Positions 3,105 to 13,176 of a DNA stretch of 23,305 bases are shown here, piece by piece. The position numbers and the translations under genes are program-made. The DNA lies in the UHGV virus genome UHGV-0337120, one strand, 5' to 3'. The notes under the pieces were generated by a model, which was given only the letters and a program-made list of their open reading frames with translations, made no database searches and was not told the origin of the DNA. The number at the start of each line of letters is the position of its first letter. The stretch's first letter is position 1. Origin of the DNA: a virus.

Positions 3105-4250
3105 ATGAGCATCACTGAATCAGTAACACATCACATCAACAGCGCACTGGATGCAGCGGAAGATACCGTTAGGGTGCCAGACTTCACTATCACACTGGAA
3201 GGGAAAGATGCCAGCCTGAAGAACATCACGCAGCGCATCATGAGCCTGACCATGACAGACAACAGGGGTTTTGAGGCTGACAGGGTGACACTGGAAATCG
3301 ACGACGCCGACGGCGGGGTGGTACTTCCGGAACGCGGAACACGATTATCGCTGGCGATGGGGTGGAAAGGTGAAAGCCTCACTCGCAAGGGGACGTTTGT
3401 GGTGGACGAAGTGAGCCACGAAGGTCCGCCGGATAAGCTGACCATATCCGCGAACAGTGCGGATTTTCGCGAAGAGTTTAACGTGAAACGCGAAGTCTCC
3501 TGGCATGACGTGACCGTTGAGCGTGTGGTATCTGCCATCGCGCACCGTTACGGACTGAAAGCACAAATCAGCGAAATGCTGATGAATATCGAAATCGACC
3601 ATGCAGACCAGACAGAGGAAAGCGACATCTCGTTCCTCACGCGTATGGCTGACATGCTGGGTGCAATAACCACCGTAAAAAACGGGAGCCTGCTGTTCAT
3701 TCTGCCGGGTGGCGGTGTGACAGCCAGCGGGCGCGCCCTCCCCTCATTCGCCCTGACCCGCTCGGATGGCGACAGTCATCGCTTTCGCATTGCTGACAGA
3801 AAAGCCTATACCGGAGTGAAAGCTTACTGGCTGGATTTAAAGTTCGGCCAGAAGAAGGCCGTGAACGTGAAAAAGCGAAACGCGAAAACCACACAGAAGC
3901 CGGAGAAAAGCAGTTCACGGGAGGGTGGATACATGGAAGGCGCAGAAGGCAATGTATATGTGCTGAGAAAAACCTACCCGAACGAAGAAGCCGCGCGTCG
4001 CGCAGCTGCCGCACGCTGGCAGCAACTTCAGCGGGGTGCAGCAGAATTCAGCATCACGCTGGCGCGCGGACGCGCCGACCTGTATCCGGAGATGCACGGC
4101 ACGGTATCCGGGTTCAAGAGCGATATTGACAATCAGGACTGGGTTATTTCGCGCATTGAGCACGTCATCGACGACAGCGGCTTCACCACCAGACTGGAGC
4201 TGGAAGCAAAAATCGCAGACTGGATAGCAGAGCGCGCCACAACTGGCTAG
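3105..4250 (+). CDS. D: Tail protein / late control protein gpD-like
   Basis: 381 aa; blocks FTITLEGKD, LTMTDNRGFEADRV, SWHD, FLTRMA, GGYMEGAEGNV, AAEFSITLARGRADLYPE, DWVISRIEHV, GFTTRLELE align to P2 gpD from memory; GGGAGGG RBS. Confidence 0.9.
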   Translation: MSITESVTHHINSALDAAEDTVRVPDFTITLEGKDASLKNITQRIMSLTMTDNRGFEADRVTLEIDDADGGVVLPERGTRLSLAMGWKGESLTRKGTFVVDEVSHEGPPDKLTISANSADFREEFNVKREVSWHDVTVERVVSAIAHRYGLKAQISEMLMNIEIDHADQTEESDISFLTRMADMLGAITTVKNGSLLFILPGGGVTASGRALPSFALTRSDGDSHRFRIADRKAYTGVKAYWLDLKFGQKKAVNVKKRNAKTTQKPEKSSSREGGYMEGAEGNVYVLRKTYPNEEAARRAAAARWQQLQRGAAEFSITLARGRADLYPEMHGTVSGFKSDIDNQDWVISRIEHVIDDSGFTTRLELEAKIADWIAERATTG

Positions 4251-7202: not shown

Positions 7203-7640
7203 TCAACCAAGAAGACTTTTGAAAGCAAAGGATAACCCAGTAGTAAGAGCGGATGATGCGGTGCTTTTTATCGCGTCCATTGAGCCACTCTTGGCTGCAT
7301 CAACAAGCTTGTCGCCAAATGATTGTTTAAGTGACTCTGGATCAAGCTTAAGTAATTCAAGACCTTTGGCCGTGAGAACCGCATCAGAAAAGTAATGCGG
7401 AGGAGAAGATTTAGCGGATACATAACCAGCATCAACAAGCCATGCGATGGAGTCACGGCGAAGCTCAAGAGCTTCAACTAGTTGCCTCCTGGAGGATCGG
7501 TCTTCTTCAAAAGTCAGCTCTGAAACACCGGTTAAGGCACAAATATCAATAGTTACTTTGCGGGGAAAAGTTTCATAAAGAAACGCAAAAGTTTTACCAA
7601 CTGTTTCATTAAAAACATCAAGATTTGAAGGTGTTGACAT
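7203..7640 (-). CDS. Hypothetical protein, transcribed antisense to the early operon (cargo candidate)
   Basis: About 145-aa ORF filling the 500-bp gap between cox and the next plus-strand gene; GGAG RBS before ATG 7640; AT-richer than flanks; no motif recognised. Confidence 0.5.
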   Translation of the reverse strand: MSTPSNLDVFNETVGKTFAFLYETFPRKVTIDICALTGVSELTFEEDRSSRRQLVEALELRRDSIAWLVDAGYVSAKSSPPHYFSDAVLTAKGLELLKLDPESLKQSFGDKLVDAAKSGSMDAIKSTASSALTTGLSFAFKSLLG

Positions 7641-7833
7641 GACTGACTCCACTCAAACAAAAGACTTATACAGCGATTTACGATTCATCATCATACAACA
7701 GCAATCAGGCAGACTGGATCCAACACGTGCAAGCAAGGCCTGGAAAGAAGCACTTACCGATCAGGGGATCGATGTAATTAGCGAAGTCATGGCTGAAGTG
7801 ATTTTTAAGCTAACAAGAGACGAATCACTGTAA
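7639..7833 (+). CDS. Hypothetical small early protein
   Basis: 64 aa; GAAGGTG RBS 6 nt upstream; first gene of the packed plus-strand early operon. Confidence 0.4.
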   Translation: MTDSTQTKDLYSDLRFIIIQQQSGRLDPTRASKAWKEALTDQGIDVISEVMAEVIFKLTRDESL

Positions 7834-7858: not shown

Positions 7859-8197
7859 ATGAAGCAACAACGAAATGCACGCATCAATAACAACACCGAA
7901 CGCCACGTTGCACGCCAGCACTTCCGTAAAAATAGTGCGACCGTAACCACTGAAATCCATGTAACACCAGACGGTCACCCGGTAAAACAAACCGGCAAAC
8001 ACACCTGGGCGATTGGCGACACTGCCATCGTTATTCACAAAAGTTTTCGCAGTCCTGTTACTGGCAGATTTAATTTCACCCTGACTCGCGGGGATGATTA
8101 CTTCGGACAGGATTTCACATTTTTTGAAGCCTTAAGAACGGCAGACAGATTAATCAACGGCCTGTGTTTTCAATATCCGGGAAGTAAGTACCGATAA
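7859..8197 (+). CDS. Hypothetical early protein
   Basis: 112-aa ORF tightly packed in the early operon. Confidence 0.5.
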   Translation: MKQQRNARINNNTERHVARQHFRKNSATVTTEIHVTPDGHPVKQTGKHTWAIGDTAIVIHKSFRSPVTGRFNFTLTRGDDYFGQDFTFFEALRTADRLINGLCFQYPGSKYR

Positions 8198-8212
8198 ATA
8201 AAGGATTCAGTC

Positions 8213-8455
8213 ATGATCGAAGCCTACAAAATACTTATTAATAACGCGTTGCAGCGTTACCACTTTGAACTCGCAAACAGGGGCGTAACTAAGGATGAAA
8301 GCCTTCGTAACTCACTGCGCGGCGCAATTATGGGACTGTATAACTGCGCGCTGGGCAGCGATGACCGTGAAGCGCTGGAAGAATTAAAGTCGATTATGAC
8401 AGAACTGTTTGAAGGTGAAATTGTTGAGCCTTACTTCACAGGGGTGGCAGCATGA
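8213..8455 (+). CDS. Hypothetical early protein
   Basis: 80-aa ORF; stop overlaps the next start (ATGA). Confidence 0.5.
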   Translation: MIEAYKILINNALQRYHFELANRGVTKDESLRNSLRGAIMGLYNCALGSDDREALEELKSIMTELFEGEIVEPYFTGVAA

Positions 8456-8577
8456 TCATATTCCTTTCATGGCTAATTCTGATTATCTCCGTACTTATGG
8501 CAATCGGCATTATGCGAATTATCCACACACTGAAGGATATCGAATTATTCTTTACCGGCGATAAACGCCGTAAATAA
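8452..8577 (+). CDS. Small hydrophobic single-TM peptide (41 aa)
   Basis: MIIFLSWLILIISVLMAIGIMRIIHTLKDIELFFTGDKRRK; ATGA-coupled to upstream gene. Confidence 0.35.
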   Translation: MIIFLSWLILIISVLMAIGIMRIIHTLKDIELFFTGDKRRK

Positions 8578-8589
8578 AGCGAAAACGTT

Positions 8590-8685
8590 ATGAAGAATGT
8601 AAAAGCAATACTCACCATTGCCAGTGTGTGGCTGATATTTCAGGTGTGTGCGCTTATCTGGTTAGCCCTGAAGATCTGGGAATAA
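8590..8685 (+). CDS. Small hydrophobic single-TM peptide (31 aa)
   Basis: MKNVKAILTIASVWLIFQVCALIWLALKIWE; weak RBS. Confidence 0.3.
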   Translation: MKNVKAILTIASVWLIFQVCALIWLALKIWE

Positions 8686-8790
8686 CCTTAAGCTTCAAAT
8701 AAGAACGCAATAACACCAGAAAACATACGAACAATTAATTAAGGCATTCATGCCATCGGGTTCCCTTTGTCTTTTTTCAGGAGTCAACAA

Positions 8791-9024
8791 ATGAGAACAG
8801 CCGAATCACCCGGCAGAGAAATAGCCGCCAGACCAGCTAACCATCATGCACATATCAGCATGGCCGCAAGAAAAGCCGAGCGTGCGCATATCTGCGAATT
8901 GCTGCGTGACCTGGTTGACACAGCGAGAGAGAAGCACACCTCCCCGGAGGAAACCTGCTCATCCATTGAACGACTGATTGCAACGCTCACGAACAACGCC
9001 GAACAGAAGGAGTGCACACAGTGA
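8791..9024 (+). CDS. Hypothetical early protein
   Basis: 77 aa from ATG 8791 with CAGGAG RBS (track starts earlier at a non-ATG codon). Confidence 0.45.
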   Translation: MRTAESPGREIAARPANHHAHISMAARKAERAHICELLRDLVDTAREKHTSPEETCSSIERLIATLTNNAEQKECTQ

Positions 9025-11087: not shown

Positions 11088-11302
11088 TCCAGGAATCAAC
11101 CGTTATCAGATTCACAGCCAACGGCCGTCAGTACGAGGTAGACGAAAGCCTGATTGACCAGGGCATGACACGCCAGGACTCACGCAATTCTGAGATGCAT
11201 CACATCCGCCTTATCAACGGTTCGCACTTCTGCGCCACGAACATGGAAGAAGTACGCGTGCTGACAGCAACACGCAATACGGGAGGTAAAGCATGGCAGT
11301 GA
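11084..11302 (+). CDS. Hypothetical small protein
   Basis: 72-aa ORF in operon. Confidence 0.4.
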   Translation: MIQESTVIRFTANGRQYEVDESLIDQGMTRQDSRNSEMHHIRLINGSHFCATNMEEVRVLTATRNTGGKAWQ

Positions 11303-11655
11303 TTTATATCGCCGGTCCAATGACCGGATACAAAGATCACAACAGAACGGCGTTTTTCACAGAGGCGATGAGGCTCGCGGCAGACGGGCACGTTGTGCTG
11401 AACCCTGCCACGTTGCCGGAAGGATTAAGCCAGCAGCAGTACATGAGCATTTGTATTCCGATGCTCATGTGTGCCGATGTCATTTACTTGCTGGAAGGCT
11501 GGGAGGATTCAGCTGGCGCGCGGGCGGAGTACGCAATGGCACTCAAGCTGAACATAGACGTGTCATTACCGCCTGTCAGGGAAGACGGTAAAAGCATCAC
11601 GCAGCCGGGAGTCGATCAGACGCCGCACAACCAGCAGATTAACCTTTCGGAGTAA
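11293..11655 (+). CDS. Nucleoside 2-deoxyribosyltransferase-like protein (DUF4406-like)
   Basis: N-terminal VIYIAGPMTGY...N...F...A..L...GHVVLNP pattern typical of the NDT-like fold, recalled from memory. Confidence 0.5.
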   Translation: MAVIYIAGPMTGYKDHNRTAFFTEAMRLAADGHVVLNPATLPEGLSQQQYMSICIPMLMCADVIYLLEGWEDSAGARAEYAMALKLNIDVSLPPVREDGKSITQPGVDQTPHNQQINLSE

Positions 11656-12083
11656 CGCAAATGCTCGCTGGCAGACAGACCAACAGATGCGCTCGCTTTG
11701 TTTTTTGCGGGCCTGACAAACGCCTTCATGGATGCGCTGTTCGTTTCTTCCAGATACAGAATGCGCTCAATCAGGCGTTCAGTGCTCATGAAATCCCTTT
11801 GCGTAATCAGACGAAGGTAGCTCTGTTTCTGCCAGCACGCCAGTTCGGCGACGAATTCACACTTGCTGCAAAACCAGGAAAAAACAAAAAATGCCAGTCC
11901 GCAAAGACTCATCAGGACGGGGAAACCTACGAGAAGAAAGGACAATACCGCAGCAATCAGCGCCCCGGCGCGCAACATGGCAGCGGCTTTATTGCTGAGT
12001 ATGAAAACCATCTCTTCCAGCCAATAGCTGTACCACAGATGAAAAAAAATCTTCTTGTCTGCTTGCTCCATAGTAACAGGCAT
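11616..12083 (-). CDS. Two-TM membrane protein, antisense to early operon (cargo candidate)
   Basis: ATG 12083 with GGAGG RBS 7 nt upstream; hydrophobic helices AMLRAGALIAAVLSFLLVGFPVLM and LCGLAFFVFSWFC, then a soluble C-terminal domain; 3' end overlaps the convergent upstream gene by 40 nt. Confidence 0.55.
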   Translation of the reverse strand: MPVTMEQADKKIFFHLWYSYWLEEMVFILSNKAAAMLRAGALIAAVLSFLLVGFPVLMSLCGLAFFVFSWFCSKCEFVAELACWQKQSYLRLITQRDFMSTERLIERILYLEETNSASMKAFVRPAKNKASASVGLSASEHLRYSERLICWLCGV

Positions 12084-12469
12084 AAACAACCTCCATTGTT
12101 AATAAACGCCGCTATCCCTCGGCGCATTCCATTTTTGCGCCGCGATTATACATACTTCAGCACGCAACACAAAAACCGCTTGCCAGCGCTCGTCGTGTCA
12201 GGTTACATTTCCGCTGCACCTCATAAAACGGGTGCCGGGATTTCCACCCCGCTGACAAACGAAGCGCACAGCCGCGCCAGCGGTTTTTTTGTGCGTACTG
12301 TATCGCCACGTCTTTTTCGCGTCAGAATTATGGCGGGGCGTACAGGGCCGACTTCGGTCGGGCCGGTTTCTTCGTTTGCCGGTTGTGGAAACCCTGTACG
12401 TCTCGCCACCCTGAGTTTTCCACCTCTGGTTGGTGAGTTTTCAAAATTCACAAACGAAGAGGCCACACC

Positions 12470-12691
12470 ATGGCAAACCGCAAGCAACAGCGCGCCCGCG
12501 CTGAGCGTCTTCACATCCGCAGCGAAATCAACCGCAGACTCCATCGGGCTGCATCTGTCGCCTTTATCATGCAGTCAAACGTATTACACCGACTTAACGA
12601 CGGTATCGCTGCCGGGTATTACGCGGCAGTCTTCAGCTATCTCGCCGAAGATCTGGCAGAACTACAAAGCCTCATCAACCAGCACCGATAA
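12470..12691 (+). CDS. Hypothetical protein (P2 orf82/83-region equivalent)
   Basis: 73 aa; GAAGAGG RBS; follows a 370-bp ORF-free structured region. Confidence 0.45.
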   Translation: MANRKQQRARAERLHIRSEINRRLHRAASVAFIMQSNVLHRLNDGIAAGYYAAVFSYLAEDLAELQSLINQHR

Positions 12692-12759
12692 ACCACATCC
12701 GGAAGCTATCCCACACCTGCACGCGGGAGGCTTCCGCACATCTGTTACCGGAGGTTCTC

Positions 12760-13176
12760 ATGAAGAGCGTTAAGGGGCTTTCAGATATTCAGGACTTTTT
12801 TAACTGGATGTGGGCGGTGGATCCCCTGCTGGCTTCCCGCCTGAACAACTGGCACGACTATTACCGCCGCGCCTGTAAACAGGCTGCCCGCAGCGTCACC
12901 ACATACGGGGATTTCTCCTTCACCGTGGACGGTCGTTACCGCGTGGACGTGAAAGGTGATGGTGATGGACTGGGTTTATTTCACATCAACGGCACCGACA
13001 GTACCGCCATCAGCTGGTCGTCATCAGAGATGGCGCTGGTTCTGGAAATGACAACCCACAGCGTGGCCGTGAAAGGTATATACACCGCAGAAGGTTTTAT
13101 CGGCGAATACCAGCGCCTTCTCGTGCTGTACCGCGCGGCGTTTCAGGTGGCAACTGCCGGGGAGTACGACGCATGA
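12760..13176 (+). CDS. Hypothetical protein upstream of A
   Basis: 138 aa; GGAGG RBS; stop overlaps A start (ATGA). Confidence 0.5.
   Translation: MKSVKGLSDIQDFFNWMWAVDPLLASRLNNWHDYYRRACKQAARSVTTYGDFSFTVDGRYRVDVKGDGDGLGLFHINGTDSTAISWSSSEMALVLEMTTHSVAVKGIYTAEGFIGEYQRLLVLYRAAFQVATAGEYDA

What the first reader, a model, noticed from the sequence alone, without database searches (positions are those of the whole stretch)
11616..12083. Second antisense cargo gene: two-TM membrane protein
Good RBS, two clear TM helices and a soluble tail, convergent with and overlapping the 3' end of the upstream gene. A candidate superinfection-exclusion or abortive-infection protein. The competing plus-strand 370-codon frame over the same DNA translates to low-complexity sequence.
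Basis: partly seen in the sequence, partly recalled or inferred. Interest (0 to 1): 0.55.

Follow-up and report, generated by a model that had tools for sequence, protein, structure and literature searches.

The report
Prophage membrane gene inside antisense ORF

Summary
Window 11616-12083 (-) encodes a 155-aa protein with a GGAGG ribosome-binding site, a 35-residue hydrophobic hairpin and cytoplasmic helices on both sides.

It is a genuine gene:
- Third-codon positions are the most variable in six independent clades.
- At least 43 clusters of ~150-160-aa relatives exist (PHROG 6315, function unknown).
- AlphaFold confidence is high (pLDDT 86).

In every context examined (16 representative loci plus the window) it lies antisense to an early lytic operon, in P2-like and in lambdoid prophages. 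It is rare among related E. coli prophages, so it is cargo. The fold weakly resembles SLATT two-TM effectors. An exclusion or abortive-infection role is plausible but untested.

The dismissed plus-strand frame (11661-12773) is not noise. In P2-like phages the gene avoids the three codons that would be stops in the exact antisense register (combined p = 2.6e-13 over 11 lineages). Lambdoid relatives show no avoidance. That frame has its own ATG and Shine-Dalgarno sequence and fills the gap between the flanking early genes. Here it runs on across the isrK and C4 immunity RNAs, as the eta ORF does in phage P4.

I infer a translated bridging ORF that prevents premature termination of early transcripts.

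The parts
11616..12083 (-). 155-aa gene for a small inner-membrane protein (PHROG 6315 family). It is the cargo gene of the finding.
   Evidence: ORF. Codon-position test 39/12/19 at positions 3/2/1, repeated in 5 clades. 43 clusters at 50% identity, all ~150-160 aa. PHROG 6315, E = 4.7e-28. AlphaFold2 pLDDT 85.9, pTM 0.78. PGAP CDS WP_271290490.1.
11865..11969 (-). Codons 39-73: the hydrophobic hairpin, two short TM helices joined by a G-F-P turn. Residues 1-38 and 74-155 are predicted to be cytoplasmic.
   Evidence: Hydropathy. AlphaFold2 helix break at residues 52-53. 12 K+R in residues 74-155 and K/R just before TM1. The topology itself is inferred from the positive-inside rule.
12090..12094 (-). 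Shine-Dalgarno sequence GGAGG, 6 nt upstream of the ATG at 12083.
   Evidence: Read from the sequence.
12145..12172 (-). Candidate sigma-70 promoter of the gene: -35 TTGTGT (12172-12167), 16-nt spacer, -10 TATAAT (12150-12145). It is back-to-back with the isrK promoter.
   Evidence: Own hexamer scan. The sister allele L002 has TAGAAT at the same position while the surrounding DNA is diverged. The tool's stricter scan did not list it because the -35 matches only 3 of 6. Activity is inferred, not shown.
11661..12773 (+). 370-codon early-strand ORF in exact antisense codon register with the 155-aa gene. The N-terminal ~140 codons overlie the gene; the rest overlies the isrK promoter, isrK, C4 and the epsilon-like ORF. 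It ends 14 nt inside orf138. Proposed translated bridging ORF, analogous to P4 eta.
   Evidence: GGAG-N8-ATG starts 5 nt after the DUF4406 stop. Antisense-stop codons are avoided: 1 observed against 4.3 expected, P = 0.011 here, Fisher p = 2.6e-13 over 11 lineages. The effect is frame-specific. Residues 166-288 hit PHROGs 821/995/6928, E = 1e-14 to 1e-16, and tblastn finds this frame in P88-like and lambdoid phages. The P4 analogue ORF spans isrK and C4.
11293..11655 (+). Upstream early gene (DUF4406, nucleoside 2-deoxyribosyltransferase-like). Its last 40 nt overlap the 3' end of the 155-aa gene.
   Evidence: Pfam PF14359, E = 8.5e-34. PHROG 355.
12107..12134 (+). Terminator-like GC hairpin plus T-rich tail on the early strand. 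It lies inside the bridging ORF and inside the 5' UTR of the minus-strand gene.
   Evidence: Terminator scan. Any function is speculative.
12180..12209 (+). Sigma-70 promoter (TTGCCA-18-TACATT) for the isrK/C4 immunity transcript, analogous to P4 PLE.
   Evidence: Promoter scan, 9 of 12 matches; it ends 7 nt before isrK.
12216..12290 (+). isrK-type RNA (the counterpart of seqA in P4).
   Evidence: Rfam RF01394, 64.1 bits against a gathering score of 50. The equivalence to P4 seqA is stated in PMC3632133.
12326..12413 (+). C4 antisense RNA (the counterpart of the P4 CI immunity RNA).
   Evidence: Rfam RF01695, 82.1 bits against a gathering score of 45.
12470..12691 (+). 73-aa homologue of the P4 epsilon derepression protein. 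It is the first protein gene downstream of C4, in a different frame from the bridging ORF.
   Evidence: BLASTP against P4 epsilon: 34% identity, E = 1e-8. RefSeq names the orthologue 'derepression protein'.

Best explanation
The window is a P2/P88-like (Peduoviridae) prophage of E. coli. Its early lytic operon runs on the + strand.

(1) Shown. 11616-12083 (-) is a real gene under purifying selection. It encodes a 155-aa inner-membrane protein: an N-terminal amphipathic helix, a tight two-TM hairpin, and a C-terminal helical region of about 80 residues. It belongs to an uncharacterised temperate-phage family (PHROG 6315).

(2) Shown. In all 16 representative loci examined, as in the window, the family is inserted antisense to an early lytic operon. 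It is patchily distributed, so it is accessory cargo.

(3) Inferred. It is transcribed from its own promoter (-10 TATAAT at 12150-12145), independently of lytic transcription, most probably in the lysogen. It acts at the membrane as an exclusion or abortive-infection effector. The fold resembles the SLATT two-TM effectors, which are predicted pore-formers. Both soluble parts face the cytoplasm, which favours sensing or acting from inside over blocking DNA entry in the periplasm.

(4) Shown. In P2-like phages the gene is constrained so that the exactly antisense early-strand frame stays open.

(5) Inferred by analogy with P4 eta. This early-strand ORF is translated from early-promoter transcripts for the sake of translation, not for its product. 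Ribosomes then cover the roughly 1.1 kb between DUF4406 and orf138, and transcription is not cut short by Rho or by the C4/isrK immunity mechanism before it reaches the epsilon-like gene, orf138 and replication gene A.

Confidence by step: about 0.95 for (1), (2) and (4); about 0.45 for (5); about 0.35 for the exclusion or abortive-infection role in (3). The overall figure is for the statement as a whole.
For: Gene reality:
- Variable columns 39/12/19 at codon positions 3/2/1. Same bias in five other clades.
- All 7 differences between the window and L001 fall on third positions.
- Family of constant length with conserved motifs F.L.YSY.LE, Q..Y..L, E..DS, NPA..RA. AlphaFold2 pLDDT 85.9.

Cargo status:
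- 12 and 25 genomes of 5426 carry the two alleles, against 1220 that match some part of the 2-kb query spanning the flanking module.
- P88 and Citrobacter phage Shae_phiSM lack the gene at this slot.
- An allele only 39% identical sits in the same slot while the two aligned flanking pieces are 94.8% identical.
- The gene is antisense in lambdoid prophages too, next to GmrSD+HEPN in one case.
- An intact copy survives in a decayed prophage beside Hhe and a type I restriction enzyme.

Promoter: TATAAT or TAGAAT at the same position in the two diverged alleles.

SLATT-like hints:
- PADLOC model '2TM effector' matched by 6 of 40 members, best E = 1.3e-4; RT-associated SLATT by 2 of 40.
- 8 of the top 23 BFVD fold matches are SLATT-named.
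- SLATT proteins are described as predicted pore-forming toxins in bioRxiv 10.64898/2026.04.29.721553.

Open antisense frame:
- 0-2 antisense-stop codons observed against 3-8 expected in 10 of 11 P2-like lineages; Fisher p = 2.6e-13.
- The other frames carry 3-21 stops.
- Lambdoid homologues carry 4, 17 and 23 antisense stops, as expected by chance.
- The ORFs start with ATG, most have a Shine-Dalgarno sequence, and they tile between the flanking early genes.

P4 precedent: the P4 ORF at 8168-8812 spans isrK and C4. Eta translation from the upstream promoter prevents termination, as summarised in PMC10111431 citing Forti et al. 1999. From established knowledge, P2 operons are subject to Rho polarity, which is what P4 Psu suppresses.
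Against: Function:
- No significant hit to any SLATT, defence or exclusion model in Pfam, PADLOC or NCBIfam for the window protein or for the family consensus.
- There is no SMODS, SLOG or RT partner gene nearby.
- Expression in the lysogen is not shown, and the -35 element is weak.

Bridging ORF:
- The other antisense gene of this same prophage (7203-7652) has 12 stops in the corresponding frame, and at least 245 nt of early-strand RNA there has no ORF of 45 aa or more. Continuous translation is therefore not a universal requirement.
- Lineage L015 has two internal antisense stops.
- The window ORF shows no amino-acid similarity to P4 Eta.
- The Forti et al. paper could not be read directly.
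- The 11 lineages share ancestry, so the combined p-value is somewhat optimistic.
Confidence: 0.45

Rival explanations
1. Only the plus-strand 370-codon ORF is a real gene. The minus-strand 155-codon frame is its shadow ORF.
For: Both frames are open in every P2-like homologue. The annotators of Yersinia phage vB_YenM_42.18 called the early-strand ORF (gene 008, 221 aa) and not the family gene. The plus ORF has an ATG and a Shine-Dalgarno sequence.
Against: The most variable positions are third positions of the minus frame, which are first positions of the plus frame, in six clades. The minus-frame protein family exists in lambdoid prophages where the antisense frame holds 4-23 stops. The minus product folds confidently. 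The antisense products match no Pfam family and vary from 130 to 370 aa in length.
Confidence: 0.03
2. True dual coding. The early-strand ORF over the gene encodes a protein whose sequence matters, for example a disordered regulator fused to the eta-like part. It is not merely a tract to be translated.
For: The frame is kept open over genus-level divergence. It has proper start signals. In the window lineage it is fused in frame to the ORF over isrK and C4, which hits PHROGs annotated as regulators.
Against: Its first codon positions change freely. Its length and end points vary, and in L022 and L023 it is a separate ORF from the eta-like one. It matches no Pfam family and its composition is the mirror image of a TM protein.
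Confidence: 0.1
3. The cassette is mainly a regulatory device of the phage itself. Its promoter fires against the early operon and lowers leaky early transcription by interference or by antisense RNA. The membrane protein could have a phage-internal role such as lysogeny control, a Kil-like activity or lysis timing, rather than acting against other phages.
For: It is always convergent with early transcription. In L011, L014, L018 and L019 it lies directly beside the C repressor and integrase and points the same way as them. In E. coli it is always back-to-back with the isrK/C4 immunity promoter.
Against: Closely related, evidently functional phages such as P88 and Shae_phiSM lack it, so it is dispensable for the phage cycle. 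The protein sequence is conserved, not only the act of transcription. A copy survives in a decayed prophage remnant.
Confidence: 0.2
4. The open antisense frame is a by-product of codon usage or of chance, with no selection on it.
For: The exact antisense register is the frame most often open opposite real genes. One lineage (L015) and one borderline lineage (L008, P = 0.06) fit chance.
Against: Synonymous resampling with each locus's own codon usage gives P = 0.0001-0.024 in 9 of the 11 lineages combined, and Fisher p = 2.6e-13. Other genes in the window carry 1.2-5.9 such codons per 155 codons. Lambdoid homologues of the same protein show no avoidance. Within clade L018-L020, 88 third-position columns vary without creating stops in the body of the gene.
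Confidence: 0.03

Closest known systems
[quoted passage not shown]
   Same: The size (~155 aa) and architecture match: an N-terminal helix, a two-TM hairpin and a cytoplasmic helical C-terminus. There are weak profile hits to PADLOC '2TM effector' and 'RTasSLATT' models. SLATT-named proteins are enriched among the best viral fold matches. One family member carries a SLATT-5 label in nr. The setting is mobile-element or defence-associated.
   Different: No Pfam SLATT model is hit at E <= 0.1 by any of 40 members, or at E <= 10 by the consensus. No nucleotide-generating or RT partner is present. Most homologues are instead paired with a 22-48-aa Pro-rich, mostly acid-tailed micro-ORF, which the window copy lacks.
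Phage P4 eta (with nested kil): the ORF that overlies the seqA/CI immunity RNAs
   Same: Applies to the plus-strand frame. The ORF starts upstream of the constitutive immunity promoter, immediately after the preceding gene. It reads across the isrK (seqA-like) and C4 (CI-like) RNAs and ends at the start of the next early gene. An epsilon homologue and the replication gene lie downstream. In P4, its translation from the upstream promoter prevents termination (PMC10111431).
   Different: There is no amino-acid similarity to P4 Eta. The Pfam Phage_ASH match is below threshold, E = 0.063. The host element is a P2-like helper-type phage, not a satellite. The ORF is extended by about 140 codons to run antisense through a complete, independently conserved gene, which is not described for P4.
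Prophage morons and exclusion genes placed against early operons (lambda rexAB/sieB region, P22 sieA/sieB, P1 sim next to c4, T4 imm)
   Same: It is a small membrane protein with its own promoter, oriented independently of lytic transcription, and patchy among related prophages. In lambdoid relatives it occupies the cI-to-recombination-gene region where such genes cluster. From my own knowledge, the P1 sim genes also lie beside c4.
   Different: No sequence or profile similarity to any of them was found. Both soluble parts are predicted to be cytoplasmic and the periplasmic loop is only about 3 residues, unlike DNA-entry blockers that act in the periplasm.

Membership tests
PHROG 6315 (phage protein family, function unknown) | Full-length profile match | tested here: met
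   E = 4.7e-28, residues 9-154 against profile positions 4-148 of 152. The lambdoid member P0083 hits the same PHROG, E = 2.6e-25.
SLATT superfamily | Two-TM hairpin flanked by cytoplasmic helices, total size ~150-200 aa | tested here: met
   Hydrophobic stretch at residues 39-73 with a G-F-P turn. AlphaFold2 helices 5-51, 54-94, 101-113, 120-134 and 144-153, pLDDT 85.9.
SLATT superfamily | Significant sequence or profile match to a SLATT model (Pfam SLATT_1-6, PADLOC 2TM or RT-associated SLATT) | tested here: inconclusive
   Pfam gave no SLATT hit for 40 members at E <= 0.1 or for the consensus at E <= 10. PADLOC gave PDLC00712 '2TM' for 6 of 40 members, best E = 1.3e-4, and PDLC03794 'RTasSLATT' for 2 of 40. 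The window protein and the consensus gave none. One hit whose extent was seen covers only TM2 plus about 20 residues. In BFVD Foldseek, 8 of the top 23 matches are SLATT-named, but all have E > 0.1.
SLATT superfamily | Genomic linkage to a nucleotide-signal or DNA-synthesising partner (SMODS, SLOG, reverse transcriptase) | tested here: not met
   No such neighbour in the window or in the precomputed Pfam annotation of L044-L049. In the P2-like loci, the neighbours identified by tblastn with a fixed query set are ordinary early genes, C repressor and integrase.
SLATT superfamily | Membrane permeabilisation or cell death on activation | not testable with these tools
   Needs expression, viability and depolarisation assays.
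P4 eta-type ORF (applies to the plus frame 11661-12773) | The ORF spans the seqA/isrK and CI/C4 RNAs and their constitutive promoter, starting upstream of that promoter next to the preceding gene | tested here: met
   ORF 11661-12773 against the promoter at 12180-12209, isrK at 12216-12290 and C4 at 12326-12413. The same layout holds in P4, ORF 8168-8812.
P4 eta-type ORF (applies to the plus frame 11661-12773) | Amino-acid homology to P4 Eta or Pfam Phage_ASH | tested here: not met
   BLASTP against the P4 ORF gives E = 0.97. Phage_ASH scores E = 0.063, 14.2 bits against a cut-off of 26. Residues 166-288 do hit PHROGs 821, 995 and 6928.
P4 eta-type ORF (applies to the plus frame 11661-12773) | Its translation suppresses transcription termination in the immunity region | not testable with these tools
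   Inferred only, from the selective maintenance of the open frame and the P4 precedent.
Prophage moron / accessory cargo gene | Present in some and absent from other closely related prophages at the same slot | tested here: met
   12 and 25 of 5426 genomes carry the two alleles, against 1220 that match some part of the 2-kb query spanning the flanking module. It is absent from P88 and Shae_phiSM.
Prophage moron / accessory cargo gene | Its own promoter and terminator, expressed from the repressed prophage | tested here: inconclusive
   A consensus -10 is conserved in position in two diverged alleles, with a weak -35. No convincing terminator was found; the gene ends inside DUF4406. There are no expression data.
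Known superinfection-exclusion proteins (T4 Imm, P22 SieA/SieB, lambda SieB/RexB, P1 Sim) | Sequence or profile similarity | tested here: not met
   No such family appeared in the Pfam, PHROG, NCBIfam or PADLOC scans.

The most novel reading that the evidence does not exclude
P2-like phages accommodate a lysogeny-side gene cassette inside their early operon by keeping a bridging ORF in exact antisense codon register across it. The inserted gene is under purifying selection for its protein and, at the same sites, under selection against the three codons that would stop the opposite strand. Lambdoid phages carry the same cargo family without this constraint, perhaps because their early transcription is antiterminated (an inference from general knowledge, not tested here). 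The cargo itself would be a solo SLATT-like two-TM effector, in most lineages paired with a conserved micro-protein, forming a new prophage exclusion or abortive-infection module.
Probability: 0.35. Interest if true: 0.75.

Novelty: new variant of a known kind. Interest (0 to 1): 0.6.

Why it matters
1. It corrects an either/or reading of the locus. Here two fully overlapping antisense ORFs both carry a signature of selection, of different kinds: amino-acid constraint on one strand and stop-avoidance on the other. There is a natural control, because the same protein family in lambdoid phages shows no stop-avoidance.

2. This gives a clean, testable case of how an operon that depends on coupled translation tolerates a gene inserted backwards. 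It also extends the P4 eta principle to helper-type phages.

3. It identifies an uncharacterised temperate-phage family (PHROG 6315) found in loci from Escherichia, Yersinia, Pseudomonas, Mannheimia and gut metagenomes. It is a two-TM protein, usually preceded by a conserved micro-ORF, and antisense to an early operon in every locus examined. That makes it a good candidate for a new prophage-encoded exclusion or abortive-infection module.

4. It shows that current annotations choose the wrong strand (Yersinia phage vB_YenM_42.18 gene 008) or omit one of the two ORFs (PGAP).

Tried and rejected
- Family scans of the window protein: Pfam, NCBIfam and PADLOC gave nothing meaningful. NCBIfam gave only sub-threshold TM-driven hits.
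- Pfam and PADLOC on 40 family members and on a consensus sequence: no significant family, only weak 2TM or SLATT hits.
- Profile search of PDB sequences: nothing below E = 0.39.
- AFDB50 fold library: unavailable.
- Genome-contig scan with alignment A3: 58 pattern matches, none confirmed. Alignment A4 was too diverse to seed a scan.
- tblastn against the phage collection: only Yersinia phage vB_YenM_42.18.
- Hypothesis that the plus ORF is a P4 Eta homologue: rejected at the amino-acid level and kept only as a functional analogue.
- Hypothesis that the antisense ORF in L011-type phages is a Cox or Apl-like HTH protein, since it is the first early ORF there: no Pfam domain found.
- LexA box upstream of the gene: none seen on reading 12084-12215.
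- Generality of the bridging ORF: it failed for the first antisense gene of this prophage, which I record as evidence against a simple rule.
- Forti et al. 1999 (PMC94026): not held. I relied on its summary in PMC10111431.
- Two literature searches were unproductive.
Full report
CONTEXT

The window is E. coli chromosome (ytfT-ytfR-ytfQ-ppa-chpSB) followed by a P2/P88-like prophage. A 99.3%-identical copy in strain DETEC-S792 is annotated by PGAP with this order:
- integrase and HTH repressor;
- Cox and a string of small early genes;
- 3'-5' exonuclease, Dam methylase and a DUF4406 protein;
- the gene of the finding;
- a 'derepression protein', a 138-aa ORF and the replication endonuclease gpA;
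- then portal, terminase and capsid genes.

The early operon is on the + strand. Base composition around the finding is unremarkable, about 0.52-0.53 GC.

- ORF 11616-12083 (-) encodes 155 aa.
- GGAGG lies at 12094-12090, 6 nt before the ATG.
- Residues 39-73 form one hydrophobic stretch broken by G53-F54-P55.
- AlphaFold2 with a 52-sequence alignment gives pLDDT 85.9 and pTM 0.78. It predicts a long helical hairpin (helices 5-51 and 54-94) plus three short C-terminal helices.
- The 3' end overlaps the convergent DUF4406 gene (11293-11655) by 40 nt.
- The plus-strand 370-codon frame (11661-12773) exists. Its first ~140 residues are rich in Ala, Gln, Leu, Lys, Gly and Arg, which is largely the mirror image of a TM protein.

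2. THE MINUS-STRAND FRAME IS A REAL GENE

Among six alleles 88-99% identical in DNA, variable columns number 39, 12 and 19 at minus-frame codon positions 3, 2 and 1. All seven differences between the window and L001 are third-position changes. The same bias appears in five other clades: 17 of 21, 44 of 77, 88 of 144, 9 of 9 and 48 of 93 variable columns are third positions, with p = 2e-5 to 8e-12.

A profile search of 1.84 billion representative proteins finds 43 clusters, nearly all 150-160 aa. They share the motifs F.L.YSY.LE, Q..Y..L, E..DS, NPA..RA and EKL..WLAGG.P. The protein matches PHROG 6315, of unknown function, over its full length.

3. IT IS CARGO, AND IT WAS ANTISENSE TO AN EARLY OPERON IN EVERY CONTEXT EXAMINED

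- In E. coli the window allele occurs in 12 of 5426 complete genomes and a sister allele in 25. By contrast, 1220 genomes match some part of the 2-kb query that spans the flanking module.
- The sister allele is only 39% identical in protein but occupies the same slot, and the two aligned flanking pieces are 94.8% identical.
- P88 and Citrobacter phage Shae_phiSM have other, plus-strand genes at this slot.
- The upstream neighbour varies: DUF4406 here, a MarR-type gene elsewhere.
- One intact copy sits in a decayed prophage remnant between IS elements, Hhe and a type I restriction system.
- In other Peduoviridae, including Yersinia phage vB_YenM_42.18, the gene again lies antisense within the early region. 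In several lineages it is directly beside the C repressor and integrase and points the same way as them.
- In lambdoid prophages of Pseudomonas, Mannheimia and gut metagenomes, distant members lie antisense between cI and the recombination genes. In one case the neighbour is a GmrSD+HEPN pair.
- A candidate promoter lies 58-61 nt upstream of the ATG. Its -10 is TATAAT at 12150-12145, and TAGAAT at the same place in the diverged sister allele. Its -35 is weak (TTGTGT) and lies in the conserved block, back-to-back with the isrK promoter.

4. WHAT THE PROTEIN RESEMBLES

Three weak and independent hints point to the SLATT two-TM effectors:
- PADLOC '2TM effector' is matched by 6 of 40 members (best E = 1.3e-4) and 'RTasSLATT' by 2 of 40.
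- nr labels member P0083 as SLATT family 5.
- 8 of the top 23 BFVD fold matches are SLATT-named, but all have E > 0.1.

The family consensus does not hit SLATT models, and there is no SMODS, SLOG or RT partner gene. I therefore say it works like, and may be distantly related to, SLATT effectors, which are predicted pore-forming toxins (bioRxiv 10.64898/2026.04.29.721553). I do not file it as a member.

The topology is an inference. K and R residues flank the hairpin, the periplasmic turn is about 3 residues, and the conserved motifs lie in the two parts predicted to be cytoplasmic. This favours a protein that senses or acts from the cytoplasmic face, which suits an abortive-infection-type effector better than a periplasmic blocker of DNA entry.

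5. THE PLUS-STRAND FRAME IS NOT A SPURIOUS COMPETITOR

The two frames are in exact antisense codon register. The plus frame stays open only if the minus gene avoids TTA, CTA and TCA.
- The window gene uses one such codon, at its 3' end and upstream of the plus-frame ATG. About 4.3 are expected from the window's own codon usage.
- The same holds in the 39%-identical allele, in the 26%-identical Yersinia-phage gene, and in nearly all of 29 distinct viral-contig homologues.
- Resampling synonymous codons with each locus's own usage gives P = 0.0001-0.06 per lineage. One lineage, L015, is an exception at 0.45. Fisher's combination over 11 lineages gives p = 2.6e-13.
- The effect is specific to that frame; the others carry 3-21 stops.
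- The natural control is the lambdoid homologues of the same protein. They carry 4, 17 and 23 antisense stops, as expected by chance.
- The early-strand ORFs start with ATG and most have a recognisable Shine-Dalgarno sequence. In the window this is GGAG-N8-ATG, 5 nt after the DUF4406 stop, and the same arrangement occurs in the diverged allele.
- They run from the end of the preceding early gene to the start of the next one.
- Their products have no Pfam domain, vary from 130 to 370 aa, and change freely at first codon positions.

So selection acts on the frame being open, not on its amino-acid sequence.

6. THE NEIGHBOURING MODULE AND THE P4 PRECEDENT

Rfam finds isrK (12216-12290) and C4 (12326-12413) on the + strand, preceded by a sigma-70 promoter at 12180-12209. 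They are followed by:
- a 73-aa homologue of the P4 epsilon derepression protein (12470-12691; E = 1e-8);
- orf138;
- gpA.

isrK and C4 correspond to seqA and the CI immunity RNA of P4 (PMC3632133). In P4 itself, an ORF at 8168-8812 spans isrK and C4 and ends at epsilon. This is eta. According to PMC10111431, which summarises Forti et al. 1999:
- eta is translated only from the upstream promoter;
- it is coupled to the preceding gene;
- its translation prevents termination, so that downstream genes are reached.

The window's plus ORF has the same layout. Its residues 166-288 match ORFs that overlie isrK and C4 in P88-like and lambdoid phages. It has no amino-acid similarity to P4 Eta, and its Phage_ASH score is below threshold.

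In P88 and Shae_phiSM this ORF is about 205 codons and starts just upstream of isrK. In L022 and L023 the antisense ORF and the eta-like ORF are separate and consecutive. In the window lineage they are fused.

7. MECHANISM PROPOSED

Shown:
- a conserved cargo membrane protein on the minus strand;
- a selectively maintained open frame on the plus strand that bridges the flanking early genes.

Inferred:
- after induction, ribosomes translate the bridging ORF, so that early transcripts are not terminated by Rho or by the immunity RNAs before they reach the epsilon-like gene, orf138 and gpA;
- the minus gene is expressed from its own promoter in the lysogen and acts as a membrane effector against other phages.

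Points in favour of the anti-termination reading:
- the P4 precedent;
- the known Rho polarity of P2 operons, which P4 Psu suppresses (established knowledge);
- the lambdoid control;
- the C-rich, G-poor early strand here: C 0.28 and G 0.21 over 11656-12215, and C 0.33 and G 0.17 over 12084-12215.

Points against:
- the other antisense gene of this prophage (7203-7652) has 12 stops in the matching frame, and an early-strand gap of at least 245 nt there carries no ORF of 45 aa or more. That region is not C-rich;
- lineage L015 is an exception.

8. NOVELTY

The protein family is uncharacterised. The combination of an embedded antisense cargo gene with a selectively maintained bridging ORF did not turn up in the literature searches I could run. 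It is best seen as a new variant of two known kinds: the prophage moron or two-TM effector, and eta-type translation-dependent read-through.

VERDICT

Interest 0.6.

Noticed in passing
L018 3911-3994; L019 3908-3994; L021 3908-3997; L022 1965-2051; L011 3882-3995; L016 ~3899-3994; L044 4862-4978; L047 4922-4990 (same strand as the family gene): A conserved micro-ORF of 22-48 aa sits immediately upstream of the family gene in most lineages, including the Pseudomonas and gut lambdoid prophages. Its core motif is FHV[LP][HR]KPAPxPE, with an acidic tail (..DDEE*) in most P2-like lineages but a basic end in the two lambdoid examples. Its stop codon is 3-23 nt before the family ATG, 3-7 nt in the P2-like lineages. 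It has a Shine-Dalgarno sequence of its own and matches no PHROG. It is absent from the window and from the L002-type allele, and degenerate in L023. This suggests the ancestral unit is a two-gene cassette.
   Followed up: partly
window 12180-12691: A P4/P1-type RNA immunity module sits inside a P2-like helper-type prophage, just upstream of replication gene A: promoter, isrK, C4, and a homologue of the P4 epsilon derepression protein. I did not search for the C4 target sites.
   Followed up: partly
window 7203-7652 (-): This is the other antisense gene of the prophage (145-149 aa, PHROG 2266, function unknown), lying between Cox and the DUF4761 gene. Unlike the gene of the finding, it has 12 stops in the exact antisense register, and no continuous early-strand ORF covers it.
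   Followed up: partly
L003 4803-5468 (-) = Yersinia phage vB_YenM_42.18 gene 008: The deposited annotation calls the 221-aa early-strand ORF and omits the conserved 155-aa family gene on the other strand (L003 4992-5459 +). PGAP does the reverse in E. coli. Neither annotates both ORFs.
   Followed up: yes
window 12221-12544 (-); L001 4022-4210 (-); L002 4017-4385 (-): RefSeq annotates hypothetical proteins of 62-122 aa antisense to the isrK and C4 RNAs. These are most likely spurious calls over structured-RNA genes.
   Followed up: no
L007 4001-4468: An intact copy of the gene (94% DNA identity) survives in a heavily decayed prophage remnant. It is flanked by IS110 and IS1 fragments and lies between the anti-phage gene hhe and a type I restriction system.
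   Followed up: no
L049 6251-8013: In a gut-metagenome lambdoid prophage, a GmrSD_N protein and a HEPN protein lie between cI and the family gene. That region therefore appears to collect defence cargo.
   Followed up: no
L015 474-941: This is the only P2-like lineage in which the antisense frame is interrupted inside the gene (codons 102 and 118). The early-strand ORF there covers just 282 of 468 nt.
   Followed up: no
window 12107-12134 (+): A five-pair GC-only hairpin followed by a T-rich tail, terminator-like, lies on the early strand between the gene's start codon and the isrK promoter. It is inside the bridging ORF, so translation could in principle mask it.
   Followed up: no
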